Shown here piece after piece: positions 5,335 to 37,552 of a DNA stretch of 64,000 nucleotides (the stretch's first letter is position 1; each line of letters opens with the position of its first letter). Source of the DNA: Convolutriloba macropyga (taxonomy: Eukaryota); the NCBI RefSeq assembly GCF_964194025.1, contig NC_134477.1, forward strand, positions 22,816,001 through 22,880,000, given 5' to 3'. The position numbers and the translations under genes were made by a program. A model generated the notes under the pieces. That model was not told where the DNA came from and made no database searches. It was given only the letters and a program-made list of their open reading frames with translations.

Positions 5335-6756
5335 ATGGCTTCCAGAATGGACTACGAAATCGAATCACCTTACAAGACAGACTCTCCACTAAGCTCTGAT
5401 GTGGAAGAATGAGAGCTCAGCCCTGGTTCTGGACGATCAAGCCCAGGGACAATACGTAACAACGCATCCGACTGCAGTACACAAACGGATGACCGTTTTG
5501 ATCGCCCACAGGACAAAGTAACAACCATGAGAATCGAAATGGAAAATGCAACATTGGAACAAGAGACACAGACAAACCAACGTACACCACAAGAGATAGC
5601 AAACCTCATATCGGAAAAACTTCATAAAGCCCGACAGTCGGATACCCGATGAAATCTAGATTCTTTTCGTAACAAAACAAATGAACAAGCTACAAGCACT
5701 AATACACATAGCTACTAGAACAATAGGCCGAATAACAAAACTCAGATTGAAACATGTGTATCTCCACCCTTACCAAACTATCCACCACCAGTACGACCAC
5801 CCCCACCTGATGATTACACAACAGAAAACAATAGTATACAAAACAGTGTTCAACAACGCTGGATTGTAAGTAATCCGCATCACATTAGACCGAACAACCT
5901 CCGGTTTCCTTACGCAGTTACACCGAGAAGTAACAATAGGAAATCTTTTTTCCACCATTCTACAAATGACCAACCCCACAACAACTGTTATGGAAACAAT
6001 TTGGTTTCAAGAAAAAGACCCAAGAACCCTCAGCAATCCACACAGTAGTAATTATAATACTTTATTATCTTACCGTAACTGGTCTGAAATGCCGTTCGAT
6101 TCTCGAGATTATAACTTTGTTAAAACACCACAGCATAATTTAAAAGATCGCGTCTCGGAGTACTTCCCGCCTCTACCATCCGAGAATAATAACACTGTAA
6201 AACGTAGCACTAAGAATATGGGGAGAGATAAACTCCATCAGACAACATACCCCATCTTAAAACAATTCTATAGTCTAACAGAACGCTTTATGTATGATTA
6301 GGACTACGAGTTTAAGGTACCAGTAATTTGTACATTTGACTACCTTGTCGCAAAGGCATCCCAAGACCTTTCGGCTTACAGCGTGTTCGAACATCAAATT
6401 TTTCAATTAAGCGTCAACTTCCTACATCCAACACCGAAGGATGTTCAAAACAACAATTATCGGTTACACGAAACAAAGTTGATTCATAACTTGATATATT
6501 ATACGTTCCCACGAGATAAAAAGATTAACACTACTAAGAGTTAAATTCTTATTAACGACCAATTAACATCACCGTATTCCTTAAACTACGGATATAAACT
6601 AAAATGGGACTATACTATCGGGACTTTACGTAATTTTGACCCTATTAAAAATTATTACATTTTTCAACCCAAGGAAGCACCGGAACGACCACTAATTGTA
6701 CCAATCGAAGCGCTTGAACCGTGTGAAGAATATCACACTTACCACTTAGAAGGCAG
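5335..6756 (+). pseudogene. ORF6 of copy A, 5' part (first duplicate)
   Basis: MASRMDYEIESP start at 5335; truncated by B's LTR at 6757. Confidence 0.7.
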
Positions 6757-9098: not shown

Positions 9099-10520
9099 AT
9101 GGCTTCCAGAATGGACTACGAAATCGAATCACCTTACAAGACAGACTCTCCACTAAGCTCTGATGTGGAAGAAGGAGAGCTCAGCCCTGGTTCTGGACGA
9201 TCAAGCCCAGGGACAATACGTGACAACGCATCCGACTGCAGTACACAAACGGATGACCGTTTTGATCGCCCACAGGACAGAGTAACAACCATGAGAATCG
9301 AAATGGAAAATGCAACATTGGAACAAGAGACACAGACAAACCAACGTACACCACAAGAGATAGCAAACCTCATATCGGAAAAACTTCATAAAGCCCGACA
9401 GTCGGATACCCGATGAAATCTAGATTCTTTTCGTAACAAAACAATTGAACAAGCTACAAGCACTAATACACATAGCTACTAGAACAATAGGCCGAATAAC
9501 AAAACTCAGAATGAAACATGTGTATCTCCACCCTTACCAAACTATCCACCACCAGTACGACCACCCCCACCTGATGATTACACAACAGAAAACAATAGTA
9601 TACAAAACAGTGTTCAACAACGCTGGATTGTAAGTAATCCACATCACATTAGACCGAACAACCTCCGGTTTCCTTACGCAGTTACACCGAGAAGTAACAA
9701 TAGGAAATCTTTTTTCCACCATTCTACAAATGACCAACCCCACAACAACTGTTATGGAAACAATTTGGTTTCAAGAAAAAGACCCAAGTACCCTCAGCAA
9801 TACACACAGTAGTAATTATAATACTTTATTATCTTACCGTAACTGGTCTGAAATGCCGTTCGATTCTCGAGATTATAACTTTGTTAAAACACCACTGCAT
9901 AATTTAAAAGATCGCGTCTCGGAGTACTTCCCGCCTCTACCATCCGAGAATAATAACACTGTAAAACGTAGCAGTAAGAATATGGGGAGAGATAAACTCC
10001 ATCAGACAACATACCCCATCTTAAAACAATTCTATAGTCTAACAGAACGCTTTATGTATGATTAGGACTACGAGTTTAAGGTACCAGTAATTTGTACATT
10101 TGACTACCTTGTCGCAAAGGCATCCCAAGACCTTTCGGCTTACAGCGTGTTCGAACATCAAATTTTTCAATTAAGCGTCAACTTCCTACATCCAACACCG
10201 AAGGATGTTCAAAACAACAATTATCGGTTACACGAAACAAAGTTGATTCATAACTTGATATATTATACGTTCCCACGAGATAAAAAGATTAACACTACTA
10301 AGAGTTACATTCTTATTAACGACCAATTAACATCACCGTATTCCTTAAACTACGGATATAAACTAAAATGGGACTATACTATCGGGACTTTACGTAATTT
10401 TGACCCCATTAAGAATTATTACATTTTTCAACCCAAGGAAGCACCGGAACGACCACTAATAGTAGCAATCGAAGCACTTGAACCGTGTGAAGAATATCAC
10501 ACTTACCACTTAGAAGGCAG
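9099..10520 (+). pseudogene. ORF6 of copy A, 5' part (second duplicate)
   Basis: ORFs 9099-9416, 9730-10065 and 10147-10551; truncated by B's LTR at 10521. Confidence 0.7.
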
Positions 10521-10918
10521 TAAGACGTGTTCTGAGCTTACCTTCTTATAGGCTACTTCTGGAACTGTCTTATGGTTGTCTCAAGAATATAGGATACTCT
10601 TAAGGCTTACCTGACTAACTAAAGTTCTAGATCGCTAGTCTGTTACTCTTTTATCTGAGCTTCAGTAGACAGTGCACGGGCCCCAATGCTAAAGTCTAAC
10701 GTATATCTCATAACTAAACAAGAGCGGAGTAGAGAGAAAGAAATATACTTTATTATTATATCAGGTCTATGACTAGTACCGACTAACGGGATAAGTGAAA
10801 AAGGGGTAAAGGGAAGACATGCAAGGAAAAGTATTTTCCCTTTTTCAACCAATCAGGGTTGAGTATTTCAGTCTTTATTTTATTTAAATAAATAAAGTCC
10901 TCAAGTCTTTTGTTGGAA
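10521..10918 (-). repeat. 3' LTR of copy B, missing its first ~16 nt
   Basis: Matches 31369-31774, then breaks at an internal deletion junction (about 10919). Confidence 0.9.
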
Positions 10919-12024: not shown

Positions 12025-13676
12025 TTAAAATTTGTCCGTTTGTTTGGGATGATTTGTTCTGCCCCTATAATGCTTGTATTCCTTGAGAAATCGGTCATCT
12101 TTTGACAGAAAATGTGCGAGGAGATTAGTTATTTCGTCAATTGGTACGTCAGTTATCGACGCTTTAACTGTATTCCTTATCTCTTTTTCAATTTCCGTTA
12201 CTTCTCGTTCGTTATTGAATTGTACTCTATTACTAAAGGCTCTATTCGTTACGCTGCCTTCTAAGTGGTAAGTTTGATATTCTTCACACGGTTCAAGCGC
12301 TTCGATTGGTACAATTAGTGGTCGTTCCGGTGCTTCCTTGGGTTGAAAAATGTAATAATTTTTAATAGGGTCAAAATTACGTAAAGTCCCGATAGTATAG
12401 TCCCATTTTAGCTTATATCCGTAGTTTAAGAAATACGGTGAGGTTAATTGATCGTTAATATGTATGTAACTCTTAGTAGTGTTAATGTTCTTATCGCGTA
12501 GGAACGTATAGTATATCAAGTTGTGTATCAACTTTGTTTCGTGTACCCAGTAATTGTTGTTTTGTACATCCTTCGGTGTTGGATGTAAGAAGTTAAAGCT
12601 TAGTTGGAAAATTTGATGTTCGAACAAACTGTAAGCCGAAAGGTCTTGGGATGCCTTGGCGACAAGATAGTCAAAGGTACAGATTACTGGTACCTTGAAC
12701 TCGTAGTCATAATCATACATGAAACGTTCTGTTAGGCTATAGAATTGTTTTAAGATGGGGTATGTTGACTGATGTAGTTTATCTTTCCCCATATTCTTAG
12801 TACTACGTTTTACAGTGTTAGCATTCTCTGATGGTAGAGGCGGGAAGTATTCCGAGACGCGTTCTTTTAAGTTATGTAACGGTGTTATAACAAAGTTATA
12901 GTCTCGTGGATCAAACGGCATTTCGGACCAGTTGCGTTACGATAATAATGGATTATAATTACTGTTGTGTGGATTATTAAGAGTTCTCGGGTCCTTTTCT
13001 TGGAACCAGATTGTTTCCATAACAGTTGTTGTGGGGTTTGATCATTGGTAGACTGGTGGAAAAACGATTTCCTATTGTTACTTCTAGGTGTAACTGCGTA
13101 AGGAAACCGGAGGTTGTTCGGTCTAATGTGATGTGGATTACTAGCAATCCAACTTTGTTGAACACTGTTCTGTAGTCTGTTAGTTGCGGTTGTGTAATCA
13201 TCAGGTGGGGGTGGTCGTACTGGTGGTGGATATTTTGGTAAGGGAGGAGAGACATATGTTTCATCCGGAGTTTTGTTACTCGGCCTACTGTTCTCGTAAC
13301 TATGTGTATTAGTGCTTGTACCTTGTTCATTTGTTCTGTTACAAAACGAATCTAGATTTCGTCGGGTATCCGACTGTCGCTTCTTAGCAATGTGTTCTGA
13401 TATGTGGTTCGCTATCTCTTGTGGTGTACGCTGGTTAGTCTGTGTCTGTTGTTCAGATGTCGCGTTTTCCACTTCTATTCTCATGGTTGTTACTCGATCC
13501 TGTGGGTGATCAAAATTGTCATTCGTTTGTGTACTACAATCGGATGCGTTGTCGCGGATTGTCCCTAGGCTTGATCGTCTAGAGCCAGGGCTGAGCTCGC
13601 CTTCTTCCACATCATAGCTCAGTGGAGAGTCTGTTTTGTAGGGGGATTCAATTTCGTAATCCATTCTGGAAGCCAT
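12025..13676 (-). pseudogene. Accessory ORF6 downstream of env (about 550 aa, one frameshift), unknown function
   Basis: ORFs 12885-13676 and 12025-12921 join through a frameshift near 12990-13010. Disordered, Pro-rich N-terminal half and globular C-terminal half. Conserved with copy A. Confidence 0.72.
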
Positions 13677-14148
13677 TTGCTAAAATTGTTACTGTGTTTA
13701 GTACATATTCTCTATTATTACATATGTTACGATTATTATTTTTTAAATTATTTTTGTCATTAGTTGATTGTTATTTGGTGTTGTTATGACTATTTTCCAT
13801 CAGAATTTTCTTGTTACTATCATTACCAAAAAAGTATTGTTATATTAGTATGAATGGATATCGACGGAACAATACTGAACGGTTAGTGTGTTGTGACATA
13901 TCGTTACGAAACATGTATTTATATTGTTTTTGCTATATGAACTATGTGAAAACTACATGTAATTGTGAAATATGAAAATGAAGTATAAAGACGGTGAGAT
14001 AAATATGGTTAAAAGGATTTATAAACTGAAGAGAAGTGTTAGAAAAAGAGGGGTAGGGAAAATTTATCGGGAAAATTTATGAACATCTAAGGAATGTGTT
14101 GTACATTAATTGTATAATTTTAGTTGTTCGTGCACTACGTGGTTGTTG

Positions 14149-17100
14149 TTAATCCTCGTATGTATCCGCCGAATGATTTTCAAAATATGTTACTTCATTC
14201 GTATGTGGTTTGTCGTCGTTTTTTAATATGTCTAAACTATGGCTGCGGTTATGCATTTTGTTAGCCATTATTTTTAATTGGTCAAAATCTATTGGTGGTG
14301 AATTTTGTATAACCATTAGTTTTACTGTTGGTATCAGAAGTTGTTTATTTGTAGATTTATTTGACGTTTGTGGTATTTCATACGATATTGACTGGTTCAT
14401 ATTGTGTGGTTGTTCATATGGATGTCTCTGAAATGATGTAGTTTGTTGTTGTTGTTGTATGTTAGGCGCACTAGGAAGGGGTGTATTGTGATTGATAGGC
14501 GTAGTTGGGAATGATATATTATTTCCCAAGCATTGATATGCAGGAGGTGGAGTAATGAGTTGTGGTGGCAGTGTTTGTAGTTTGTTTTCTGATATTGTTT
14601 TCAGTGGTTCTACTCTTAATGGTTCTTGTTTATATTTTCGTTCTGGTAATGGCGGTTTTTGTTTCTTTGAAGATGAGTTTGTTGTTCTTATCTGTAGTCC
14701 GTTTTTTTTCTACGAATTGTTGTGTTATAATGTTTGTAATTTGTATCCACATAAATTTCTGCAGGTTTATCATTATCAGCATAATCTGTTGTATGTGTTA
14801 TGTCTGTGGAATGCTTCTTTCTGGGTTGATTTCCGTATTGTGTATAATTTTCATCGCTGTTTTTTCCTAAAGATTTCTTTCCAGTTAACACTGGGTTGGT
14901 CGATTTGGAAGTTATATCCATTTATGTACAGGTCTCTTAACCATTTGAGTGATTGTTCGTAGTTTTTGTAAGTTTGTAGTAGTCCTAGTTGTTCAAGTTC
15001 TAGCAATTTTTGTGCGTTTGCTGATGTTGCTTCTTGTAATGGTTTTTCGCGATCTCTCATGTATTCGTGTAATAAATCACGTTTTCGTTCTTGGATTAGT
15101 TGTTCTTTACTGTATATACCTTTTTCTATTAAACTTGATTTACTGAACATGTTATCAAGTACTATTTTTTCTGGTGATACAAAGTTCAATACTGTCTCTA
15201 CTTTTACAGGATATGGTGTTACTCTATATCTTGCTGTTCCTTCAGTGTCTATTGAGATCAGTTGGTCGAAGTTGCTGTGTGAACATTGGACTTTCTTTGC
15301 CCATAAGTATGTTTGTCTTGTTAGCTGATGTACATATTGTACTCTATTATTATACAGTATTGGCATTTTATCGTAACATTCGCGAGTTTGTGATACATAT
15401 AAGGGTGATGATTTTTTTTGCGCGTTTGTACATTTTCATTACCTTTACTCCTTCTTGTTTAACAAAGATTGATCTATCCCCAGTGAGGATGTATCCTAAG
15501 AGTGATGTGTTCTTTTGTACTTGTGTCAGTGTTAATTGTCAAATGTTTCTAGTTTGTTCACAAATTTTCGAGTAAAATTCTATTGCGTGTAGACTTATTC
15601 TCGAGTATATGTTAGTCATGTAAATGTCCATTTTCATGTTCATGTGTGTGTTTCGGTTTACAAAACCTTAGCAGTATTCTTTGTTTTCCTCGTTTTCTTA
15701 TCGTGTTTTTTGTGATGTTATTTGTTTTGGTTTAATCCGTATAAACTTTTCTTCTTCAAATTTTTCTTTTCTCCTCGTTACTTTTTGTCCTGTATGTATA
15801 TCGAATCCGTATTTGTATATTAAGTAAATGTCGTCGTATTCTGTTTTGTGTATTGGTTGAAGCGAACAGCATTCGCCTTCGACTAATGGGTAGATTTCAA
15901 ATCTGGTGGCAATAGTGTCTGTTTTGTTCATTTTTATTTTCTGTGTTCTATCATGTTGTTAAACTGTTGTCCGTTCGGCATTTGTTTCTATCTAATATCT
16001 GTCTTGGTATTTTACCATAAATGCATCAAGTCTAATAAGTTCAAACAATTGACAATGTGTTTGGGGTTCCCAAACTATTGTTGCTTTTGTGAAAGTTGAC
16101 GGTAGACATTCTCCTTTGCGGAGATCGCATGGTTATTTTGTTTCCATATACGATATTTCTTCAGTGTCTAAGTTTAATATGATTGATATTTCTCGTATTT
16201 CTATTGTCCAGCCTAGTATGTCTATTCTGTTTTATTTTCTTGGTTCTTTCATGCAATTTGATTGTGCATTCTTAATTGCGTTTGGTATCCACATTGGGTT
16301 TGTATAATCATAAACTATTCGTCCGTATGGTGGTACCATAGGAGTATCAAGGTCGAATTGTATTCTGCCTTGCATATATTCGATATGTTTCTGAAGTGGT
16401 GGGTTAGCTATGTAGTTAAATGAAATGTTATATCGTGTTGGTTTGTATCTTGTGTTTTTGAGGAGGTTGATTTTAGCGACTTCGTTACGAACTTCATCTG
16501 CATCTAGTATTTTTTTTCTATGTGCATCTGAGACATAGTAACTTGGTCTGTTAGCTCGGATATAATCGGTGTGTTTTGAACACCATTCTACGCGTTATTC
16601 AATTGTTCCTGCAACTGCGTATGCTTTTATTTCTACCGCTTGTGCTTTCGATAATAGCTGTACTTCAGTCTTTGTCATATCTAAATCTAGGGGTTTGAAC
16701 TTACATGTGCTTATTTTGTTTAATTCGTAAAATTTAACATTAGTTATCTCTTCTGCGTCAAAATCGTACTGTTAAATGAAAATGTCCTGTGGTCCTGTTG
16801 CGGAGCCGTTAATATTCTGTCCCGTTAGTTCTACAAAGTCTGTTTTTGTTTGTCGCTTTTGTCTTATATTGTTCATGCCAAATTTCTCTAATATACTATC
16901 TGTTAATCGTTCTCTGTAAAAATTCCAATTTCGTGTCCATTTATCGATGGCTATTTCCCACATCGCTTCGTAGTCTGAACTGTTTTTAAAGTTATCGAGT
17001 TTTTCGATTTTGCTGTTATTGAAAAGTTGTGGATTAGTGTTGATAGAATTATTATTGATTACATGGTGTTGTAGGTTATTATATTTTTGTTGATGAGTTG

Positions 17101-17316
17101 TGTGGAAATTTTAGAGTACTTTTTCATTTCTTGTTTTGTTTTTTTTTTAAAAAGTTTGATTTGTATTTCCATTTTTTCATTTATACGGTCTTTAATGCGT
17201 TGTCTAGCATCAGTTTTTAGTCTTTGTTCTAATTGTATTTTTGTTTCTACTTTCATATATAAGTATATTATTATTAATAATAATATAAAAATAATAGCTT
17301 TTAGTTGAATCGACAT
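14149..17316 (-). pseudogene. env: env-like glycoprotein, copy B (frameshifts; TM anchor deleted)
   Basis: Homologous to 1061-4847. RQKR furin-type site at 16853-16864. About 270 bp corresponding to A 3851-4122 is missing at about 14860-14878. Confidence 0.78.
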
Positions 17317-19100
17317 GTGTATGACAGAACAGTGTGTGGATTGTAGATTGTTGCAAATCCTAATGTTTGTTTTGAATATCTGTCAAACTTGTATATAAAG
17401 TCAATGCAGATGAACGGTGCTGGAAGTGTGGTTGTTACTATTGATGGTGTAGTTGCGTCGAACGGGTGATTAAAGACATTTGTCGTATTTAATTGTTGTG
17501 TTAAACTTAAATTCGAGAGCTGGTGTTGCTAAAACGTTAAGTGCTGCGTTACGTTGTCGATGTGTAAGATTTAAAGTGTTTGTTAGTCTACTTCTTGACC
17601 GATTATAAAGTGTATCACCAAGATTAGTGGGACCGATAACGGTGGAGGTGGATTCCAAGTTTTATGATCTAGTGCGAATAGATATGTATGTTCATTAGTC
17701 CTACTTTTAGTAGGTGGATTTGGGTTAAGTATTGGTGTTGATCTTGTTCTACCAGGATGGCTTGATGGTAATCTTATTTCTGGTATAAAGGATGATGGGG
17801 ATAAAGCTGTATTTCTTGGTGGCTGTAGGGAGTTTGTTAGTTCAACCTGTGGTACGCTTAGAGAGGTATTCGATGATGATGTTTGATTTGATCTTTGTGG
17901 TGTTGTGTTACTACTTGCGGATTGTGGTGATGTTGCTGACAATAGGGAACTATTAGGTGAGTGTAATCGCTGTGCTCGAAAATGTTCTTGAACAAAGTTG
18001 AAATCTTGTCTTTGTTGGAATATAGGTGGTAGAAATGGGTTTGCTCTCAATTCATATTGTGTGGTTATTTGGATTGTACTATTACCAGAATGATCGCTTG
18101 GAGAACATAAACTAAAATTATGTAATGTTGATGTTCCTGTTCTACTTGGTGGTGCTAAGTTTCCTACTTCTATAGGTCTTATTATGTAAGATTCTATATA
18201 TGTTGAACCATATGAAACGATCGTTGAATCTTGTGTTGGGACTGATAGCGAAGATCGACCTCGTGCTCTTAAGAGTTCTCTTCTTTCCAGGCGGTCTCGC
18301 CGTACGGTATATGGATTTTCGTTTCCGGGATTATCATCAATTTCTGGTGAAGTTGGTATATTTGTTAAATCTGTAACTTCGTTATGATGTGGTCTTTCTT
18401 GATGATTATTGTTACTTTGATTTTTATTAGACGACGCAATTTTTGCAGGTTAAACTTTAAGCTCCTGAGCCAGGTCCGTGTGGTGGAACTTGGATGAATG
18501 GTGGTGAGAGTATTATTAGTGGTGTTAAATCTTGTTCTGGTTGTTGTGTTTGTGCTCCTAGATTTGATATCCAAATTTCGTTATTGTCAAGTCTGAGATG
18601 TAGTTGATAAATTATAATGTTACCGTTTAATAGAGAAATTTCAGGAAATCCTATTTGAAAATAAAACTTTTGGGAATGTAGTGTGTACTATATTGATTCT
18701 TCTATATCTGGTATCTGGTATAGGATCAATTTTTATGGTTTTACAAAATATTCTATTAACATTAAACACATGCGTAAGAAGAAATAAATTATTAGTGCAA
18801 TTTTAATAAATTTAAAAATTTCCAGTTCTATTATATCAATAGTGGATTTGCATATATGAAATATATCGGAATGTACTCAATGCATTGGTTTTATTATTGT
18901 ACTGGTGGACTAGCGTAGATGACTCTACGGTTTGAAATAACTTCGTATATTGTTACTGTAGCTAGATATGTCGAAATAACTACAATACACGGTAAAAGAA
19001 AGATAGTTAAGAAAAATATTATTTTAGACAATATTAAATACGTTGCTATTAGTGCGTTAGGAAAATCGATTGTTGAAACTGTTTTTGTTGTTTTCTATAT
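17301..19100 (-). pseudogene. Accessory ORF4: hydrophobic N-terminal segments followed by an S/T/P-rich region (frameshifted)
   Basis: Manual translation gives ALIATYLILSKIIFFLTIFLLPCIVVISTYLATVTI near 18930-19055. ORF fragments 17583-18050 and 17470-17658. Homologous frame in copy A at 1-1076. Start is uncertain. Confidence 0.5.
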
Positions 19101-19314
19101 GTTTTGTTTATTTTATTATTTGTTTGTATATGAATGTTAGATATTATGGTTTTAAACTTTATCCGGTGGAAATGAGATAAAATGCTTCACTGAAGAGTGA
19201 CAGTTATTTACTAGTGTAACTGACACTTGATGGTGCCGCACTATGAAAGTACTGTAGTTCCAAAAGTGTTTATTTTATGTTATTGATATGCAACGATAAC
19301 GATGATAGGTATCA

Positions 19315-19734
19315 TTACTTATTTAATTTTTCAATTTTGTCGTCTGACAATGTTACAGCGTCTTTTTTGCAAACTATTAGAGAAACTGTGTGTAATTTGT
19401 TTATATTGACACACTTGTCTGTGTGAATTTGTTGTTTTAGTTTTTCGAATTCTGTAATTGTTTCAGTAAACGGTGCCGTGTTCTTTAGTAGTTCAAAATG
19501 TTTTTCTCCCCAAAACAGTTTTACTTCTTGTCCAGTTTCTGTTCTTCCTTCTATTAGAAGAAGACAGTTTTTAGGTGAGATTCTACAGTTTGTTAGTTTA
19601 ATACTGTCGTTGTCGAAATGTATATGACAATCTGGTGGATATTCAAGTTCAATATATTCGTCTATTTGAACAAATATTTTTATGCAAAGTTGATTTCTAT
19701 TCAATGATTTCATAAACTCTGACACCGATAGCAT
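19315..19734 (-). CDS. Accessory ORF3 of the element, 139 aa, unknown function
   Basis: Uninterrupted ORF on the element's sense strand with globular-like composition. Preceded by an acceptor-like TTCATTTCTGACAG at about 19777-19790. Confidence 0.5.
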   Translation of the reverse strand: MLSVSEFMKSLNRNQLCIKIFVQIDEYIELEYPPDCHIHFDNDSIKLTNCRISPKNCLLLIEGRTETGQEVKLFWGEKHFELLKNTAPFTETITEFEKLKQQIHTDKCVNINKLHTVSLIVCKKDAVTLSDDKIEKLNK

Positions 19735-22700
19735 AGGTGGTTGTTCATTACAATGTTTACTATAATGATGAATTAGTCTGTCAGAAATGAAATTAAAATA
19801 ATTCAGATTACCTGGTACTGTTGAATCGTTTTTGGCTGAATTTTTGTTGATAAAACAGTTGATTGAAGAAGAGATATTCTGTTAGTTTTAATTTCTCAAT
19901 GAATATTTCGAGGTTTCTCAAATTGGTTTGTCTAGATCGAGAGAGTATGAAATTTGAGAATTTCAGGATTATTTTTTGGCCGTAGAGATGAAATGAGATT
20001 ATGATTTTAGAAATGAAATGAAATGAGGTTATGTTTGTATTTGAGACTATAAATTCAGAAATAGAATGAAGTTTTGAGTAGAAGTTGGAAATTTTTTCTC
20101 ACTGAATATTTGAATTTATGTTTTTGTGTATCAGTTTAGCTGAAATTTCAGATTTTTCAAATGTAGCTGAGGTTGTGACTTGTACGACTTGTGATTTTTC
20201 ACTCAACTGTTTGTTGCCTCTATAATATTGTTGGCATTTGCATACCTTCCGTTTTCTTTTCTTGGTTCTTGAAGTTGCCAATTTTACTAATTTACTGGGT
20301 CTAATTAAACTTTTGGATTCTGAGTTTTCGAATTATAAGGATCTTTCTGAAGTCTCTTCAGTTTTGTTGTTATGATTGTTTTTCCTTTGTAATTGGTATG
20401 TTTGATGGCAGTGTAACGTACTTTTGTCATGGTATGTTAGAGATATTAATTAGTTACTTGATGGTGTTTATTGTCACTTGATAAAATTTAGCTCCAAGTA
20501 GGTTTTTGATCAATGGTATAATTGATGAAGATGGTTGAAGTGGATGGTGACGCCTTTGGTGTATGTCGTTAATGAGTTACCAAGTTGGTGTTTGGTGCAA
20601 ATGGTGCAAATGTCAAGTAGATGGTTGGTTTGCAAACTGTAACTGTTAATTAGTTGTTTGGTATCGAAGTCATGTCGAACGTGTTTGTGTGTATGATTGG
20701 AGTTGTGTTTAGATGAAGTGTTTACTTCAACTGCAAAATGATCTTTGTAGATCTATCATGATAATCACCATTTCGTTCATGGCGTTGAATATGTTAATTG
20801 GTTTGGCATTTTCTGTTTGTTGCTAATTGCGTCTTTAAGGGAACGGTAAGTCCCTGTAATTTGTATGTAAACTCTTTTTATCTGCAAATGAAAGTAGTAA
20901 TTTGTTCCTTTCTTTCCTTGTTCTGTGTTAATGAGGCCCTTGTTACCTTTTGTAATCCTTATATTTTTTCTAATGAGGATACTAATGAGGTCTTTTCCTG
21001 CTAATGATAGCGTGTTGTAAACGTCCGTTTCCTTCGTATGACGTAGGTGGATGGTGGCGTATTATTCAGGTAAAATGTCACTATGGGATTTCCATTTAGC
21101 CTAAATGTCTAATAAGCAGAAATGTCTATTTAGTTGGAATGTGTATTTAGCCGAAGGGCGTTTTACTGATGTTACGCGTTAGAGGTTGTTTGGTTAGTGT
21201 TATGAGCCAGAGGTCGTATGACCGATGAGTAATCAATGTGAACTATATGTCATGTATTTAGGTATTGAGCCGTTTAATTGCCGTTGCTCACTTGTTAGAA
21301 ATACCCTGGTTAGAGTACGCTAGATGTTACTGGATTGTAACACATTACTGGATTGTAACACGTATTGGAGTGTTACGCGTATTTGATTTTTACGCTTAAT
21401 GGATCTTTATACGTCGTTATACGTCTTTTACTCGTTCTGTTTAAATTATCTGTTCGGGAAATAGGAAGTTACTTAAATTGAGGAAGCTATTGAAAAAAGG
21501 AAGTTACTATATTTGTAACCGTTTATATTTATATGTATGTTGTTATTTCTAGCTTCCGCATTGTTACTATTGTGTGTGTCCCGTATTAATTTTTGTCCTT
21601 ATTATTTTTTATCTGTTTGTTAATTTTTACGTTGTTATTACTTGTCTTTTTAATACTTGTGGTTTTTCCTGTTGTTATTACTTGTTGCTATTACTTATCC
21701 TTTTGATTTTGATATTATAAATGTTTATGTATTATAAATGTTTTATATTAATTTCATTTTTCATGTTCCATAGTATTAGCAACTACAAAATGTCTATTCC
21801 ATTCTGCGAGTCCTCTATCGTGTTATTGCGGACATTGTTATTTGATTCTATTTGTGATTTGATTATTTTGTTATTTGATTGATTTGTTTATTGTTTAATC
21901 GTCAGCAAACTCGAAACGTCTATTCCAGTTCCAAGCCTGTGAACATCAAAAATAAAAACAGTTTGTGTTTTATTTTTATTTTTGTTTGTATTATTTGTTA
22001 GTAAAAACTATTTGTATTAGTATATCCTGTTTGGATTTTTTACTTGTTATTTTGATTGTTTGTTTGTTGTTTTATTTGTTTTATTTAACTGATGACGGTG
22101 GATTGGATGGGGATGGTTGTATTGAGAAGGTGGTTGCGGTGGTTGCGGTGACTGATGGTTAGTGATGAGAATCAGTTGTGAGATTGCCAAAGAAGAGGAG
22201 GTTTGATGATGGAAATAATGTTGAAAAAAAGAAGGTGATGGTGGAATGAGAAGAAGACGGGTAATACATTTTTGTTTTATGTTTCATTTTTTAGTTGTTT
22301 ATTTAAATGTCTCATGTGTTCATTTTGTTTCAATAGAAGGTGTTAATTTTTAGGTAAGGTAAACTGCAGTTAAATTCTATAGTATCACTGATTTAGTTCA
22401 TACACTAAATGTTGGTTGGAACAATTGTTAGTAAATACGGATTATATGGTTATGGTTTATAGAGGTTAGTGGTTAGGTGTTGGTTATTAACACTTTTTAG
22501 TTTCAATGTGTTATTATTTTCATTTGTATTTTAATATTGGTGTTTTCATTTGTTAAAATAAATATGCCTTTTTATTCTACGTTTTTACTGAAAAGTGTTC
22601 TGGTGGTATGCACACAAGGTTCGGGTTAGGAGGGTGTGCTAATTCTTTGTAGTAGGGATACTGAACATGTTTTCAAAGTAGTGAAAATACTGAATATGCC

Positions 22701-22982: not shown

Positions 22983-23208
22983 NNNNNNNNNNNNNNNNNN
23001 NNNNNNNNNNNNNNNNNNNNNNNNNNNNNNNNNNNNNNNNNNNNNNNNNNNNNNNNNNNNNNNNNNNNNNNNNNNNNNNNNNNNNNNNNNNNNNNNNNNN
23101 NNNNNNNNNNNNNNNNNNNNNNNNNNNNNNNNNNNNNNNNNNNNNNNNNNNNNNNNNNNNNNNNNNNNNNNNNNNNNNNNNNNNNNNNNNNNNNNNNNNN
23201 NNNNNNNN
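22983..23208. other. Assembly gap
   Basis: Run of N. Confidence 1.
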
Positions 23209-23281
23209 TTTATTATTATTTTAAGAGTGTTATCTTCCTCTTGCGAAGATTGTATTGATGTGTATGTTCTTTATCTGATTG

Positions 23282-24778
23282 TTATAGGCTTGGTTTAGTT
23301 GCAGTTGCTACATTGGGTTGTTTTAATGTTGGAATCTCATTTGTGAGCAAGTAGTTTTGTAATTCTATTTTGATATGTTTTTCTTTTGGATAATATGGTA
23401 CAATGTGATTTCTGTGGATTGTAATCTGTTCTTTATTGTTATCCTTTAATATGTATCTTGTTCTTCTAGGTTTATCTATGATTAGATATGGTCCTGTTTT
23501 CAGTGGTAACAGTTTTTTGGATACTCCGTCAACTTGTTGTTGAATTGTTACTAATACAAAAGTATTCTTTTCAGGTGGTTTTGCTGATCTGAAGCTGAGA
23601 TCCATTTCATCTGTTAATTTTTTCTGCTCTGTAGGATTTTTGTTATAGATTGATATGTGCCGTTCTAATGTCTTTCTTTATCAAGGAACCATTTGGCAAA
23701 TGTTCCTTTTTGTAATTTTGCAATTTTTGGATGATTAAATTTTTTTTCCAGATGAGTGTGTGCTGGCTGTGTGTTACATGCACTTTTCTCTGTTGGATTA
23801 CAATTTCTCATTTCATCTGTAGAGTTGATCCGAGTTTTTTTATTTCGTTGGTTTTCTCGGTTTTTGGTTGAAAACGACTTCATATGGGGACATGCCTAGT
23901 CGTGCATGGTATTGTGTATTGTATGCGTATGGAAAGAATTTTGCTTTCCGTGACCAATTATGATACTTTTTGTCTAGTAGTGTTCTAATGAACTGTCCAA
24001 TTATTCTGTTTGTTCCTTCTACTAGAACGTTCGTCCAGGGTGCATATGTTGAACTTGGTTTAAATTTGATTTCAAAGTAGTTACATAAATGTGTTAACTC
24101 AGTGTTAATGTGTTCCGATCCGTTATCTGATCTAATTTCTTCGGGTAGTCCGAAATTAATGAACCAATGTTCGAATAGTGCTGTAAATGCATAATGTCCA
24201 TTATTTTTTGGTGCACAAATTATCGTTACGTAGTGTGAAAATGCGTCCACTATGACAAAGATGTAGTTGTTTCCTTCAGATGTTGGGTGAATAGGTCCTT
24301 TTGTGTCAATCATTGTCATTTCATAGAAATATGTTTTTGTTGGTGCAAGCTGTTCTTGCTTACTTTTTGTTTTTGTATTAGCTAATACTTTGTTGGTTTG
24401 GCATTGTATGCAATCTGCTATCAGTATTTTTATCCAAACTGTAAGATTTGGGAAATAGTATTTATCCATTATATTTCTTTTGGTTTTTTCAAGGCCTGTG
24501 TAACCTACTAGGTCGATGCAATGGTTATTATAAAAGAAGCATAGTAAAAGTGTTAATGGTAGACAGATTCTTTGCATTGATTTTTTGTGAATGTTGATTA
24601 CAATTTTTGTGATACCGGAGTTTTCATCAATTATAATGGATTTGAATTTGCAAAAATATGCAAAAAATCCTTTGTTTCCACGTATTTCCATTGTTACTGA
24701 ATGTGGTTTATTGTTATGTTTCTTCCCCATTTTCACTTTGTGAAGTACAGGATCTAAGATTTGGGTTTCTTTGATCAA
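23282..24778 (-). pseudogene. pol: Integrase with GPY/F module (disrupted)
   Basis: Degenerate HHCC (NHCIDLVGYTGLEKT..CIQC), IDTKGP, IVDAFSHY, IRSDNGSE, VEGTNRII. KLLPLKTGPYLII in 23282-23605. Confidence 0.93.
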
Positions 24779-25089
24779 GTTTTCAGTTATTTTTGTTTTT
24801 TCGTCATAAAAATGTCTGATATTTTTACATTTTCATAATTTGTTTTTTGTTGTGGTCTTATATTATTTATCAATCTGAAATAATCATCATCATGATGTGT
24901 TGGTCCTTTTTGATTTTTCTCAATGATAAGGTCATTTTTTCTACAATCGGTGATTGCCAATTTTTTGTCTTGTGTTTATATTTTGGGATCAGATTTGTTT
25001 TTGTTTCTGTATTATACTTCTCGTATGAGATGGGTGATATTCATTTTTATCGACATTTATTTCGAAATAGTTATTATGTTTGTTAGCTA

Positions 25090-26600
25090 AAACTGGGTAA
25101 TGTGTGTCAGGGAGGGCTAGGTTTTTTCCTTCTGTCCAAATTATGTGTAATTTTGGGAATTTCATTTATATTAATTGGAATCTATAAACTCTATGATTTG
25201 ATTTGTTCTTTTGAGTAAATAGATAGATGATTGGTTTGTGATCTGTGAATAACACTATTGGGTGGTTTGAACCGGTCAGTAAAAATTCATACTCTGTTTA
25301 ATGTTGACTCTCTGATTAATGTTGATAGTCGCATTTCGATAGGTGTGAATAGTCTGGAATTTGCTGATACTAATTTCATTTTTCTTTCAGTTGGATGTTG
25401 TTGTAATATTGCTGCTCCGATGCCTGTGTTTGATGCATCTGTGATAATATAGGATAGTTTTGTAGTATCTGGCATTGTTAGTTCTAATTTGTGTGATATT
25501 GTTCTTTTCATTTGTTTAAAAATTTGTTGATGTTCTTTTGTCCATTTGAAATCGTTTTCTTTGTGTAGGAGGTTATATAATGGTTGTAATATTGGTTGCA
25601 TACCATAGACGTATTTCGCAAGGAAATTTATTGTTCCCAGGTATCTTTGTAATGCTTTCATGCTTGTTGGTGGTTCCAGTTTTTGGAAACCATCAATTCT
25701 TGAAGTTAATGGTTTTACTTTTTTGTCTCCAATGATGTGTCCGAGAAATTTAACTTTTTTCAACTTGAAGTATGTTTTATCAGGTGCTGCTTCAAGGTTT
25801 TTTTTCAATAATGTTTTATGATATTCTATTAAGGTTTCATACATTTGTGGGTATGAATTGGTTTGAATGAAAATATCGTCGACATATGTGATTACCGTCC
25901 CTTTCCTGATTAAGGGATAGAGAAAATGTGTTAATATCGATGCAAACGCTGCGGGTCCAATGGATATTCCGTAAAATAGTCGTTTGAAACGATATTGTTC
26001 GTTTCCAATCGTAAAATGTGTGTATCTTATTAATTGTTGGTCTAAAAGTGTTTGGTTATATGCGCTGTTGAGATCAGCTGTCGTAAATATTGTTCCGTTT
26101 ATTCGTGTTAGGGCCACATCAACTGGTTCAATTGGCCAGTTGCATTTAGATTCGTCAACCATGTTATTCAAGTATCGTGCATCTAATACTATTTTTAATG
26201 ATTGTCATTTCCGTAGAATAATTACTGGGTTTGTGAATGTATTCCCTGCAGATAATTGTTCTTTGTTTACAGGTGCAATTATGTTGTATTTCTTCAATAC
26301 GTCTAGTAGTTTTTGGATTCTTTCTCTGAGGTGTTTTGGTACTTTGCTTATTCTCTGTTTTTTTGAAAATTGCATCTTTTTTCATAGGTAAATTCAATTT
26401 CACTTTTGTTTTTCCAACGTCGAATTTTGTTGTTGCGTAAACTTGTTTGTATTCTAGTATGATTGTTACTATTTTTTCGAATTCCTCTTGTGTTAAATGT
26501 GAATTTTGGAAATCGATAATTTGAATGAAATCCTTTTCCGATACTGTGTATTTGTTAATATTAACTTTGCATTTAAAATTAGGTTCTCTTTCAAATGTTG
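25090..26600 (-). pseudogene. pol: Reverse transcriptase and RNase H (Ty3/Gypsy type, disrupted)
   Basis: ADLNSAYNQ, FKRLFYGISIGPAAF, TYVDDIFI, VKFLGHII. RNase H motifs IITDASNTGIGA, FTDHKP and IIWTEGKNLALPD. Confidence 0.95.
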
Positions 26601-26807
26601 CTACTTGTTCAACTGTTTCGTTGTCTTGTATACTTAATATTTCGTTAATGTCATTTTCATTTTAATATGTTAGATGATATAATGCTGAAAATAAGTCTAT
26701 CGAATTTGTTTGGTACATTTCTTCTTTATGTTGTTTGAATGTAATGTTTTGATACACTGAACCAATTAGACCTACATTAATTGTCACTTTATGTTGGTTT
26801 TTATTTA

Positions 26808-28808
26808 TTAAGAAGTGTTGAAGTTTAATTTATTAAGAAGTCTATTTATTAAGAAGTCTATGAAGTGTTCTTTTTCTATCGACACATCTTTTATGTCTGT
26901 AAATGATAAACTTTTATATTTGTTTATCGGTTCGAAATAGTACATTGAATTGTAAATTGTTTTTCCGTTTGATTTTTCCATTTGCTTGAATATTGGTATA
27001 GGAAAAGTTATGCTTTTATGTTGATCTTGTTCAAGGTATATTGGTTCTTTGTTAAAAATTGGGTATAATTGAGAGTAATAAGGATATCCCTTTGTACTGC
27101 TCATGAAGAAAGTAATGTCATTATCTATAATTGTGTTAGTATTTATAGTTAGTTCCTTTATATTTACATTTATTGTTTCTATGTATTCTTTGAAGAATGG
27201 AGTTCCAAGTATATTATGATTGCATTGTGTTACGTAAAAATGTATACTAAATTTATGTTGGGGTTTATTTCTGCTGTTTGATGTTTTGTCAGGTGTTAGA
27301 TTTAGTGTTACTGTTCCGAATGTTTCTATAGTTTTATTATTTGCTGCTGTTAGCGTCTTGTTAGCTTGTTCAAGGCGTATATCTGGGTTGTTATTTTTTA
27401 TTTCGTTCCAAATATCCTCGTTCAAAAGATTTAATGTTGCTCCAGAGTCTAATAGAAAATCAATTTCTAGTATTGGTCTATGCTTTGTAAAGTCTTGTTC
27501 AATTTTGTTACACTGGTACATCGGTAGCATCCAGGTTGGGTTAATTTCTAGTGTATTTACTACTGTGTTGCACGTGTCTTCGTTAGCATTATAGAATTTA
27601 TCTAATATTTCTTGGTCTTCACTTGATGATTGGGATGTGTTTTCGTAATCGTCAATTGCAGGTGGTTCATCGTTTTGTCTTTCTGTTTCTATGTTATTTA
27701 TTCTGTTTTTATTTTTATTGTTGTATTTATTTCCGTCTGTTCTTCGATCTTTTGAATGATATCTATCATTTTGTTCTCTTTGCGTTGAGTNNNNNNNNNN
27801 NNNNNNNNNNNNNNNNNNNNNNNNNNNNNNNNNNNNNNNNNNNNNNNNNNNNNNNNNNNNNNNNNNNNNNNNNNNNNNNNNNNNNNNNNNNNNNNNNNNN
27901 NNNNNNNNNNNNNNNNNNNNNNNNNNNNNNNNNNNNNNNNNNNNNNNNNNNNNNNNNNNNNNNNNNNNNNNNNNNNNNNNNNNNNNNNNNNNNNNNNNNN
28001 NNNNNNNNNNNNNNNNNNNNNNNNNNNNNNNNNNNNNNNNNNNNNNNNNNNNNNNNNNNNNNNNNNNNNNNNNNNNNNNNNNNNNNNNNNNNNNNNNNNN
28101 NNNNNNNNNNNNNNNNNNNNNNNNNNNNNNNNNNNNNNNNNNNNNNNNNNNNNNNNNNNNNNNNNNNNNNNNNNNNNNNNNNNNNNNNNNNNNNNNNNNN
28201 NNNNNNNNNNNNNNNNNNNNNNNNNNNNNNNNNNNNNNNNNNNNNNNNNNNNNNNNNNNNNNNNNNNNNNNNNNNNNNNNNNNNNNNNNNNNNNNNNNNN
28301 NNNNNNNNNNNNNNNNNNNNNNNNNNNNNNNNNNNNNNNNNNNNNNNNNNNNTGATCGTTGTCTGTATCTGTCACTTTTGTTTGAATCTTTCCTATAATG
28401 TCTTTGTCCATTATTGTTATTGTAATTATTATTATTATTATCATTATTCCTGTTGTACGATGAATGCTGTCTTGAGCGACTGTGGTTTGTGTATCTTGAG
28501 CTTGATCTGCTATTGTTGTATTTGTTATGATTATTGTTTCTGTTGTAACTGTTAGTTCTACTTCTGTTATAAATGTTTCTGTTATAGCTTCCGCTTCTAT
28601 TGTTATAATTATTATTCGAATTACGATGTCCTTGATAGTATCGATTGTCTCTGCTATATGAGTTATTATTTGAATTGTTTCTTGATTGTGATCTGTATGG
28701 TGTTCTGCTTCGGGAATTGTGGTATACTGCTGATGTTGATGGTAATTGTCGTCCGTTGATGTTATTCGAATCAATTCTTCTGTTTGGTAGATTCTGATTG
28801 TTCCTCAT
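26808..28808 (-). pseudogene. N/R/S-rich linker plus retropepsin-type aspartic protease (spans assembly gap)
   Basis: FLLDSGATLNLL active-site motif and HNILGTPFF downstream motif. Confidence 0.88.
27791..28351. other. Assembly gap within a low-complexity gag-pol linker
   Basis: Run of N. Confidence 1.
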
Positions 28809-28819
28809 ATGACTATAAA

Positions 28820-31265
28820 ATGATCTTCTTTTTGGTCGTCTTATGCTTTCTCTTTGTGGTCTTTAAGAGACTTTAAAGCATCTTCCTTTTGTGTGACCGT
28901 GTGAACTGCAATAGCTGCAAAAAAGTGCAAACTTTGGTCTTCATTAAAGTTTTTTCTATCGTATGTGTTATTAATTCCGTTTAGAACGCTACAGATTGTT
29001 CCTTCAAATTGTTCTAAAACATTTTGGTTAAGATCGTTTATGTTGTTACAAGCTACATTCATTTGTTTGAGATCTTCACTAATGTTAGTTGTAGTTTGGT
29101 TGACTTCATATAGTCTTTTGTGATTGTTTGTTATTGTTCTTGTTAAATCCATTTGAACTATTTTGTCAACTAGTGTTTTGAATGGCATTTCTGGTTCTCT
29201 TGGCGTTTGTTTATGATTGGCATGTTTTTTCAAGGCTGCTGTTTTTAATTCGTTATCCAAGCATCTAATGAATGTTTGATTCATTACGCTATTTCTATAA
29301 TCTTCTGTATATAATGAGTATGCTGTTTTTACAAGTGTTTCTATTCTCAGTGCGAGTGATCGTAATGATTCATTTGTGTGTTTTTGTAATTGTTGTAACA
29401 CTACTTTTGCTTGTTGTTTTGATTTCTCTGAGTCGAATATGTCTAAAAAATCTTTACAACATGTTTCCCAGTCCAATTTGGTTTCACTTGGAAGAGTGGA
29501 ATACTACTTTTGAGCTGGTCCTTGTAGTGTATGTAATATTAAAGCTGCTCTTTTTACATTTCATTTATGATGTCCTGGTTTGTTTACTGGTTCTATGCCG
29601 CTACTAAATATCATTGCTGCAACTATACTGTTTAAATATTCTTCAACAGTATATGCTGGATCTGTGCCGTCAAATGGTCGTTTTGTTGTTGGTACTAAAC
29701 CACCACTAATGTTTTGTTCTATTTGTGGCTCTTCGTGTATACTCATTGATGTTAATTGTTTATAGAAGCGTAAGGGAAGGGTCTGTTACTGTCGTTCCTC
29801 TTTCTTCTGTTGTGATTGAATTTGATCTTTTAGTATGATTTTCCTGTTGTCTATTGTTTTGAATATTAGTATTTTGTATGTTATTATTATTTGAGTTTCT
29901 GTCATTATTTGAGATTCCGTTTTCTGATCTTAGATTGTTTTGTCTATTATTGTTATCTAATGTTTTTTAAAGTTTGTCGAATACCATTTCGATTGCTTCT
30001 TCTTGTCTTCTTTCTATGTTCTCGTTAATTTGTCTAAATTTGTTTTCTATATTATTAATAAGTTTATTGGTATGATTTGTTACTTTTTCTGTTTTTTTTG
30101 TCGTTGAGATCTTGATAATTACACATTTGTTGTTCCCAGAATAGTTCATTTTGTTCACGGTTATCGTTCAATGAACCAATATATGTGTTATTCCTGTTAT
30201 AATTATATTGTGTTGGGTTCTGATATTTTCGTCTAACTTTTTGATTTAGTGATGGTGGTAGCAAGTTTCCGATTCTCGCATCTCTGTCTTCTGAATCAGA
30301 TATATCTATTTCGTCTGCTATGTTCTGTTGATTTCCAAATAAATTTGATGTTAACTGTTTATCTGGTTTTATTGTTGATTTTTGTTTTGATTGTAAATTT
30401 AAATTTATTTGGACATCTTTTGGTGTTGATGTCGATGTTAGACTTCTTGACAAGTTAAATGATGAAGAACCTGCTTGTCTTTGGTCTTCTATTTTTACAT
30501 AGGTCTCTAATCCTTCTATGAAGTTGATGCTATCTGAACATACTCTTAGTGTGCTTTCAAAGTGTTGCGAATAGTATTCACTGTCCCAAATGTTTTTAAG
30601 TTTGTCACTTAAGTTTTGGATTTGTTCTTGAAATTTTTCTCCAAACTGTATTCGTTTGCCATTAATGTGTTCAAAATTATCTAACCAGAATAGGAACAAG
30701 AACTCTGAGATAATTTTAATTTTATGTCTGATGTTGCCGTTTTTAGTTCTTGTTTTAGTTCCATGATTTTTGTTAACCAATTGTTATAATTCATTATGTC
30801 GTTTTTTAGTTTGTCGTTTACTGACTGTATTGGTTTCTTTTGATCGTTTATGTATACGGTTGTATTTCGTAGTATTTCGCACGTTGTAGATGGTATTGCT
30901 GTTGCTTTTTTTCTATCTTGAGAATCTTCGTGTCGTTTTAAGAATGTTTTGAACATATTAGGTAGTGTTGTTTCATTTTGGAAATTATAGAATGTTTTTC
31001 TATTTCCTTTATCGTCTTTTAAGGTAAATGTACATTGTTTATTAAGTTGATCTCTATCCAGTAGTATTACTGGTAGATAGTGTGCCAAGTGATTTCTATG
31101 AATGTTAATTTGTTTTATATGTTTTGTTTCGTTGAAGAGGTTATTCTTCAAATTTATTATTATTCTGTAAATAATTTCGCGGTTTTCTTGCGGGCAATCG
31201 CTAGCAATTGTAAATGGTGTTAAGAAATGGTTTGTTATCGACTGTGGTTGATGGTTGGTATCCAT
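28820..31265 (-). pseudogene. gag: gag with long N-terminal extension, capsid-like domain and CCHC zinc knuckle (frameshifted)
   Basis: ORF fragments 30681-31265, 30064-30780, 29967-30158, 29561-29746 (FDGTDPAYTVEEYL) and 28841-29476 (WETCCKDFLDIF..LQQLQKHTNESLRSL). CSYCSSHGHTKGRC (C-x2-C-x4-H-x4-C) is encoded at 28878-28919 in an adjacent frame. Confidence 0.85.
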
Positions 31266-31350
31266 CTTTTTTTTATTATTTGTGAGATAATATTTTTAAT
31301 TTAATTCCGTTATGGAGATTCGAAATTTGTTATTTTCTTTGGTTTATTTC

Positions 31351-31368: not shown

Positions 31369-31790
31369 TAAGACGTGTTCTGAGCTTACCTTCTTATAGG
31401 CTACTTCTGGAAATGTCTTATGGCTGTCTCAAGAATATAGGATACTCTTAAGGCTTACCTGACTAACTAAAGTTCTAGATCTCTAGTCTGTTACTCTTCT
31501 ATCTGAGCTACAGTAGACAGTGCACGGGCCCCAATGATAAAGTCTAACGTATATCTCAAAACTAAACAAGAGCGGAGTAGAGAGGGAGAAATTTACTTTA
31601 TTTTTATATCAGGTCTGTGACTAGTACCGACTCACGGGGTAAGTGAAAAAGGATAAAGGGAAAACATATAAACATTTAAGGAAAGGTATTTTTCCTTTTT
31701 CAACCAATCAGGGTTGAGTATTTCAGTCTTTATTTTTTTTAAATAAATGAAGTCTTCAAGTCTTTTTGTTGGAAGTCAACATTGACTCCA
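31369..31790 (-). repeat. 5' LTR of copy B (422 bp, TGGAGTCAA...CACGTCTTA)
   Basis: Near-identical to 10521-10918, 6757-7154 and (inverted) 35952-36376. Bounded by the TSD on one side and the PBS on the other. Confidence 0.92.
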
Positions 31791-32023
31791 GCAGCGTAAC
31801 GAATCGAGCCTTTATTAATATCATACAATTCAATAACCAACGAAAAGTAACTGATATCGAAAAAGAGATACGGAATACAGTCAAAGCGTCGATAACCGAC
31901 GTACCAATTGACGAAATAACTAACCTCCTCGCACAATTTCTGTCGAAAGACGATCTTTTTCTTAAAGAATACAAACATTATAGGGACAGAACAAATCATC
32001 CCAAACAAACGGACAAATTGTAA
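31791..32023 (+). pseudogene. ORF6 of copy A, 3' part, resuming after the B insertion
   Basis: SVTNRAF...NHPKQTDKL* matches the C-terminus of 12025-12921. Confidence 0.85.
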
Positions 32024-35951: not shown

Positions 35952-36376
35952 TGGAGTCAATGTTGACTTCCAACAAAAGACTTGAAGACTTTATTTATTT
36001 AAATAAAATAAAGACTGAAATACTCAACGTTGATTGGTTGAAAAAGGGAAAACACCTTTCCTTCAATGTTTATCTGTTTTCCCTTTATCCCTTTTCCCTA
36101 ACCCCGTTAGTCGGTACTAGTCACAGACCTGATATAATAATAAAGTATATTTCTCTCTCTCTCTCTACTCCGCTCTTGTTTAGTATTGAGATATACGTTA
36201 GACTTTAGCATTGGGGCCCATGCACTGTCTACTGAAGCTCAGATAGAAGAGTAACAGACTAGAGATCTAGAACTTTAGTTAGTCAGGTAAGCCCTAAGAG
36301 TATCCTATATTCTGGAGACAACCATAAGACAGTTCCAGAAGTAGCCTATAAAAAGGTAAGCTCACAACACGTCTTA
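35952..36376 (+). repeat. 3' LTR of copy A (425 bp)
   Basis: Reverse complement of B's LTRs. Starts TGGAGTCAATG, ends CACGTCTTA, followed by unrelated sequence (CATC...). Confidence 0.92.
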
Positions 36377-37552
36377 CATCACTTCCTCAGTCTACTTTAA
36401 AAATCGAGTGAAAAGGTAACGAAAATGTGCGAACAGATCTTTTAAAAGCGACAACGCCGCAATACAATTCAAATTTACATTAAAAAACGGAGAGCGACTA
36501 AAAAATAGCCATTGGCTGATGGTGGTATAAGAAAATGATTGATGTCCGAAATTTTTTAAACTGCAATTTATTTTGATATAACTTTGTTGTTAGACGTACT
36601 CTTGTTACACAACGAGGGGAAACGTGCATCAGTTAGTCAATACCAATAAGCCTTAGAAATGTTAAGCCCTTGAAGATCGATTAACTCAAAAATGACAAAT
36701 AATTTTTAAAAAAGGAATTTTAATAAAAATGTTGCTGAAAATCCTGATTTTAATATCTACAGGATCATTTTTGTGTCTCTAGAGGCTATCCACTAACCCA
36801 ATTCCAATCTTCAAAAAATTTCTTGGCTCAAAAAAATAGGCAATAAATTTTAGAAAAAAATTTCATATTTCAAAAAAAAAGAAATTCGTCCTTTTGAAAT
36901 ATTGAAAATCATTCTGTTTTCCACTAGCAACTATGTAACAACATAGTATCAAACACTGGAGTAGGTTATCAGGCTACTAAAGCACAAAAAACTGAATAAA
37001 AAACAAATAATTTCAAAAAACATAAAAATTGCAAATTTTGTCAAGGATTTCCAAAAATCGAAATGTTGACTGGTAGAAAACAATTTCATTAACACTAAAA
37101 ACCATAAATTCATATAATGCAACTGCTGAGACTACCGTGTGCATTCGAGACGGTTTCCGGCTTGAGGGATTTACCAAAAGCAACGGGAAAAGAGTGGAAA
37201 GAATGTAAAAAACCTTTTTACACCGTTAGTGCTAACCTTAATAAGGGTGGAAAAAGCGGAATTCATGAGTGTAATTATGAGAAAAAGAGTGGAAGATTGT
37301 TAAAAGAGCCAGTTGAGTGCCGGAAAATAGCCGCGATAGACGCTTGTGGCCTTACATCAATTGAAAAAACTAAGGAAATAAGATAAACAGATCGACCACC
37401 AGACCTTTAATTGACCACCACACTTTTGGGTTAGATTCAGACTGTCAATTTTATGACACGTATGGTCTCTATGGAAAAAGACCTGAAAGAGTTTTTTTCA
37501 AAAACTGAGATATGAAATCTAAAACTCAAGACTATTAATCAAGAATTAGGGC

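What the first reader, a model, noticed from the sequence alone, without database searches (positions are those of the whole stretch)
12025..13676. Unknown ORF downstream of env appears to have been under purifying selection
Seen: many A-vs-B differences are synonymous (in 31791-32023 vs 12025-12256: CGA/AGA, ATC/ATT, CGG/AGG, GTC/GTT, ACC/ACT, AAC/AAT, TCG/TCA, GAC/GAT). The protein has a disordered Pro-rich N-half and a compact ~300-aa C-half. WDYTIGTLRNFDPIKNYYIFQP..LIVPIEALEP looks like a small SH3/Tudor-type barrel (speculative). Inference: a functional accessory protein, for example matrix-like, anti-silencing or chromatin-reading.
Basis: partly seen in the sequence, partly recalled or inferred. 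Interest (0 to 1): 0.72.

Follow-up and report, generated by a model that had tools for sequence, protein, structure and literature searches.

The report
Retroelement gene mimicking ARS2-binding motif
A large virus-like jumping gene in an animal genome carries, behind its envelope gene, an old extra gene kept by selection, whose protein has a small barrel domain and a short tag matching the one host proteins use to grip the RNA-sorting factor ARS2, so it likely helps the element's long RNA escape nuclear destruction, which is untested.

Summary
Observation confirmed. The ORF (here Z, about 550 aa) is the last gene of a ~21-kb Ty3/gypsy element with a gB-type env. Copy A has one frameshift and sits inside the same gene of copy B. 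dN/dS between A and B is 0.09-0.14 in the C-half and only in this frame. Among 29 old copies, private changes run N/S 2.45 and shared changes 0.48. Z lies 3' of env in 11 of 11 elements examined, including a lineage with 52-56% RT identity, where its core (43-45%) is better kept than env (30%). It has no Pfam, PDB or host-gene match. AlphaFold supports an SH3/Tudor/KOW-type barrel, but without a conserved methyl-lysine cage. New here: (1) a conserved splice acceptor just before the ATG and a conserved donor in the LTR, predicting a spliced message; (2) a conserved N-terminal EEGEL matching the ARS2-binding motif, present in the near clade and absent from distant lineages. Best reading (about 0.42): a Rev/CERV-like regulator of genomic RNA fate. 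Binding and expression are untested. The scan noted other gene-rich env gypsy elements in this genome, but not this gene.

The parts
12025..13676 (-). ORF Z, copy A (about 550 aa; one frameshift near 13,050 splits it into frames 12885-13676 and 12025-12936)
   Evidence: unbroken natural copies
13593..13607 (-). EEGEL, matches the ARS2-binding motif [ED][ED]GE[ILV]
13203..13247 (-). conserved proline-rich motif in the disordered N-half
12424..12609 (-). N-part of the core conserved in all lineages (F.L.F.FL.P..D, K..H...Y..F, N.K.TSP)
12280..12423 (-). SH3/Tudor/KOW-type five-stranded barrel
12064..12279 (-). C-terminal helical bundle (approximate limits)
   Evidence: block pLDDT 76-87; barely tested in the fold searches
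13680..13685 (-). predicted 3' splice acceptor TTTTAG, 3 nt before the ATG
31452..31462 (-). predicted major 5' splice donor in the U5 part of the 5' LTR of element A
31369..31790 (-). 5' LTR of element A; 4-bp target duplication GCAG at 31791-31794 and 10517-10520
10521..10918 (-). 3' LTR of element A (5.8% diverged from the 5' LTR); duplicated at 6757-7154
23200..31295 (-). broken gag-pol of A (gag, protease, RT, RNase H, integrase order = Ty3/gypsy); approximate limits
14149..17316 (-). broken env of A, class III / gB-type (Pfam Monjiviricetes_fusion); approximate limits
17304..19881 (-). further accessory frames before env: X (19315-19881), a small beta-rich frame (about 18460-18690) and Y (17304-18449)
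5335..6756 (+). ORF Z copy B1, cut by the insertion of A
9099..10520 (+). ORF Z copy B2 (tandem duplicate of B1)
31791..32023 (+). [not shown]
35952..36377 (+). 3' LTR of element B

Best explanation
[not shown]
For: Selection. Position 3' of env in 11 of 11 elements whose context was read; this slot holds regulators in complex retroviruses (recalled). TTT[CT]AG within 39 nt of the ATG in 41 of 50 anchored loci (63 tried), against 2 hits in 12,750 nt of the adjoining intergenic DNA, with unconserved phase, so the upstream exon would be non-coding; the same acceptor sits at the start of the frame in 4 of 5 distinct far-lineage loci. A donor AG/GTAAG lies about 85-95 nt before the LTR end in 8 of 8 LTRs from both near and far lineages (two LTRs were cut short or long). 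The motif matches the published search pattern [ED][ED]GE[ILV] in a disordered region (PMC9402713, passages). It is found in 114 of 118 full-length near homologues, in 46 of 57 near-clade loci and in 10 of 10 intact young copies, including a lineage with about 51% identity in the C-half. Chance: 3 of 20,000 shuffles. The host has ARS2 with the invariant zinc-finger lysines. Conserved basic residues K385, K413, R436, K442 and R455 at 62-84%. Precedent: CERV (PMC10309623, abstract and section 15). Ars2 represses transposons in the fly germline (PMC12123415, abstract).
Confidence: 0.42

Rival explanations
1. [not shown]
For: The fold neighbours are mainly PHF1/PHF19 Tudor and Spt5/NusG KOW domains. 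It fits the same spliced 3' slot. Tandem repeats lie directly downstream in B (351-bp units). Other elements of this genome are noted with chromatin-type cargo (earlier findings, unchecked).
Against: Of four cage-equivalent columns only Y430 is mostly aromatic (66%); W428, Q448 and L457 are 3-6% aromatic (equivalence judged from the model's strand order and a recalled Tudor cage layout). The 351-bp repeat array was not seen in element A.
Confidence: 0.25
2. [not shown]
For: Same motif evidence. Z divergence does not track RT among near sublineages: A vs C5 copy has RT 85% and Z core 90%; C9 vs C5 copy has RT 92% and Z core 80%. This suggests module exchange.
Against: Strong purifying rather than diversifying selection. 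There is a single motif copy, whereas host adaptors often carry two or three (PMC9402713 passage).
Confidence: 0.15
3. [not shown]
For: Always next to env (11 of 11). Conserved proline-rich motif resembling late-domain or SH3/WW ligands. Core retained over deep divergence.
Against: No myristoylation Gly2, signal peptide or membrane segment. No listed match to a viral matrix fold among the BFVD or PDB rows shown. A nuclear-type motif sits at the N-terminus.
Confidence: 0.13
4. [not shown]
For: SH3/Tudor barrels are common in host proteins.
Against: Frame-specific omega of 0.09-0.14. Saturated dS with dN about 0.1 between sublineages. No Pfam family. None of the 115 hits among 1.84 billion representatives has the long, unique look of a host gene, and the 10 looked up are unnamed. 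Co-divergence with RT and env.
Confidence: 0.03

Closest known systems
HSV/gB-type 'ancient errantiviruses' (Chary and Hayashi, PMC13524379; abstract, section 5 part 1, section 14 and term passages seen)
   Same: Ty3/gypsy gag-pol followed by a class III (gB-like) env; multi-copy, young LTR pairs
   Different: About 21 kb, with roughly 5 kb and at least three extra frames between pol and env and a conserved gene after env. The paper's text has 0 hits for 'accessory', 'downstream of env' and 'fourth ORF', and its filter allowed 1 kb between pol and env and 10 kb in all outside insects (with a 3-5 kb downstream extension for some phyla). Its supplements were not seen.
CERV of C. elegans Cer1 (PMC10309623; abstract and section 15 seen) and HIV Rev / HTLV Rex / MMTV Rem (recalled)
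   Same: Element-encoded, separately spliced, novel-fold protein; predicted role in the fate of unspliced genomic RNA
   Different: No sequence or fold link was tested or seen. CERV has G-like and Cys-loop M domains; Z has an SH3-type barrel and an ARS2-type motif. Function is shown for CERV and only inferred for Z.
ARS2-binding EDGEI motif proteins: Red1, ZFC3H1, FLASH, ZC3H18, ZC3H4, NCBP3 (ELM LIG_ARS2_EDGEI_1; PMC9402713 and PMC10767929, passages seen)
   Same: [ED][ED]GE[ILV] in a disordered N-terminal region
   Different: Those are host factors; here the motif is in a retroelement protein, as a single copy, and binding is untested.
3' accessory genes of complex retroviruses (foamy tas/bet, nef, tax/rex; recalled) and extra ORFs of LTR elements (review PMC6431247, passages seen)
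   Same: Slot between env and the 3' LTR
   Different: No homology detected; the protein family has no Pfam or PDB entry.
Tudor (PHF1/PHF19), KOW (Spt5/NusG) and chromo barrels
   Same: Five-stranded SH3-type barrel, rmsd 1.4-2.9 A over about 50-57 residues
   Different: Identity 5-18%; no conserved aromatic cage; embedded in a larger core unique to this family.

Membership tests
Ty3/gypsy errantivirus, gB-type env | gag, protease, RT, RNase H, integrase in gypsy order between LTRs, with primer site and target duplication | tested here: met
Ty3/gypsy errantivirus, gB-type env | env with class III fusion homology downstream of pol | tested here: met
   PF24664, E 2e-14 and 9e-14, above cut-off, in two lineages
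Ty3/gypsy errantivirus, gB-type env | placement in the published POL tree | not tested
   reference sequences not at hand
ARS2-binding (EDGEI) motif protein | match to [ED][ED]GE[ILV] in a disordered region, conserved | tested here: met
   near clade only, 0 of 5 far-lineage loci
ARS2-binding (EDGEI) motif protein | physical binding to the ARS2 zinc-finger leg | not tested
Rev/CERV-type RNA export regulator | made from a spliced subgenomic mRNA | tested here: inconclusive
   conserved donor and acceptor; no junction read seen because no RNA run was listed
Rev/CERV-type RNA export regulator | nuclear, binds genomic RNA, needed for its export | not testable with these tools
   needs experiment
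Methyl-lysine-reading Tudor domain | SH3-type five-stranded barrel | tested here: met
Methyl-lysine-reading Tudor domain | conserved aromatic cage | tested here: not met
   1 of 4 equivalent columns mostly aromatic; equivalence rests on strand order and a recalled cage layout
Viral matrix protein | membrane-targeting signal (Gly2 myristoylation or hydrophobic segment) | tested here: not met
Viral matrix protein | matrix-type fold | tested here: inconclusive
   none among the rows listed; residues 187-385 and the helical tail were poorly tested

The most novel reading that the evidence does not exclude
This clade of invertebrate gypsy elements has independently become a 'complex retrovirus': a fully spliced 3' gene encodes a new-family regulator that mimics the host's ARS2-recruitment motif to take over cap-proximal RNA sorting and save its 21-kb genome from premature termination and exosome decay. 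It would be the first mobile-element mimic of that motif that my searches could find.
Probability: 0.33. Interest if true: 0.82.

Novelty: new variant of a known kind. Interest (0 to 1): 0.6.

Why it matters
How very long, intron-bearing retroelement RNAs with a strong splice donor near the cap avoid CBC-ARS2-directed termination and decay is an open question. Outside vertebrate retroviruses, CERV is the one such regulator I read about. A selected, undescribed protein family with an ARS2-type motif gives a cheap direct test (peptide binding, junction reads) and shows that gB-type errantiviruses can carry complex-retrovirus-like gene sets that size filters would tend to miss.

Full report
Setting. 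The window holds two nested copies of one LTR retroelement family. Element A runs on the minus strand from its 5' LTR (31790-31369) through gag-pol, a spacer with several small frames, env and the ORF in question (Z) to its 3' LTR (10918-10521). It has inserted, with a 4-bp target duplication, into the Z gene of element B on the plus strand. Domain order and Pfam hits make it Ty3/gypsy with a class III, gB-type envelope. The LTR pairs differ by 5.8% (A) and 4.7% (B), and both copies are broken. A young copy elsewhere spans about 21.1 kb with LTRs 99.8% identical. The genome is 1.18 Gb; a search with the C-half scored 130 of 1,741 candidates, and about 50 of the 130 rows (hand count) show an open frame of 556 codons with no stop inside the match.

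Observation. Confirmed. Omega is 0.14 and 0.09 for the two C-half stretches and 0.32-0.34 for the N-half (slightly inflated, since about 40 codons lie past A's frameshift). It is 1.1-1.8 in the other sense frames of the C-half and 0.5-1.3 in non-coding controls; env in the same pair gives 0.34-0.37 and 0.66 in its tail. Among 29 old copies (L001-L030 without the truncated L027), changes private to one copy are 406 nonsynonymous to 166 synonymous and shared changes are 98 to 203 (Fisher P 8e-28). In 10 young copies both classes are mostly synonymous (7/44 and 9/39). Between sublineages dS is saturated while dN is 0.08-0.16. That some selection acted on an ORF in a replicating element is expected; what matters is how old it is and what it does.

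Age and range. Z lies directly 3' of env in 11 of 11 elements whose surroundings I read. In a far lineage RT is 52-56% identical, integrase 49-53%, the env ectodomain 30-31% and the Z core 43-45% over 109 residues, and Z there is again under purifying selection (omega 0.05-0.10 or saturated). A search of 1.84 billion representatives gave 115 hits. Several distant ones (P0160/P0163, P0168, P0180) have only 30-41% identity to anything scored in this genome, so they come from other assemblies, and their context is unknown. The 10 looked up carry no names. Nothing points to a captured host gene.

The motif. The first conserved island contains EEGEL (EDGEL or EEGEI in other sublineages). The published ARS2-binding pattern is [ED][ED]GE[ILV] in disordered regions; it binds the zinc-finger leg of ARS2 and links capped RNA to PAXT, NEXT, ZC3H4 or export factors in a mutually exclusive way (PMC9402713 and PMC10767929, passages). 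It is kept in 114 of 118 full-length near homologues (of 120 listed, 248 found), in 46 of 57 near-clade loci, and in the most diverged near lineage, whose N-half otherwise barely aligns; shuffles give it 3 times in 20,000. The host encodes ARS2 with the invariant lysines of that finger. Against: the far lineage and the distant homologues lack it, the copies are not independent, and binding was not modelled.

Mechanism. Most likely (0.42) the spliced message makes Z early; Z enters the nucleus, binds the element's RNA through its basic core, and occupies ARS2 on the cap, displacing decay and termination adaptors or handing the RNA to export, as CERV does for Cer1 by other means (PMC10309623, abstract and section 15). 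Fly Ars2 represses transposons (PMC12123415, abstract), which gives a motive. Rivals: transcription or chromatin factor (0.25), ARS2 decoy in trans (0.15), structural protein (0.13), captured or neutral (0.03).

Novelty. The element type is known (PMC13524379; abstract, section 5 part 1, section 14 and passages seen; supplements not seen), and extra ORFs after env are known in general (PMC6431247, passages). The protein family has no Pfam, PHROG or PDB entry, and eight literature searches showed no description of it or of a mobile-element EDGEI mimic. Earlier scan notes describe other gene-rich env gypsy elements in this genome (unchecked; they prompted the spacer scan), but look-ups by sequence, place and words found nothing on this gene. 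Verdict: new variant of a known kind, interest 0.6.

Noticed in passing
window 17304-18449 (-); L085:1321-2484, L089:1819-2982, L073:1618-2970: ORF Y, just before env: 388-451 codons with no methionine in any of the 5 frames checked, omega 0.15-0.28, and a 120-aa C-terminal domain 34-41% identical in the far lineage; likely reached by splicing or a non-AUG start.
   Followed up: partly
window 19315-19881, about 18900-19080 and 18460-18690 (-): Three more small conserved frames between pol and Y (X about 180 aa with an internal donor-like site, a hydrophobic frame of about 60-85 aa, a beta-rich frame of about 90-115 aa); no Pfam for X; the beta-rich one could be the real matrix-like candidate.
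   Followed up: partly
L061:436-2343 and relatives: Far-lineage Z keeps SSSGEL (5 of 5 distinct loci) and SWADEVE (4 of 5) in its disordered half, and its frame has no ATG for about 40 codons after the acceptor.
   Followed up: partly
window 3656-7410 / 7408-11174: 3.76-kb tandem duplication at 98.5% identity covering B env-Z and the 3' LTR of A; real or an assembly artefact not tested.
   Followed up: no
window 32106-34600 (+): Seven 351-bp tandem units in the 3' untranslated region of B; A has one unit.
   Followed up: no
window 31369-31790: The LTR ends read TG...TA rather than TG...CA, with a 4-bp target duplication.
   Followed up: no
near sublineages: Identity ranks for Z, Y and RT disagree between sublineages, suggesting recombination of the 3' gene block.
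   Followed up: no
P0160 family: A distant Z family (599 aa; the best 120 of 593 hits are 98-100% identical) that is not in this genome (best match here 30-39%), so likely a young repeat in another assembly.
   Followed up: partly
L057:3-5323 (-), upstream of the window: Another pol-like element appears inserted in the pol-env spacer of B.
   Followed up: no
window 63130-63992: Satellite of 32-bp units.
   Followed up: no
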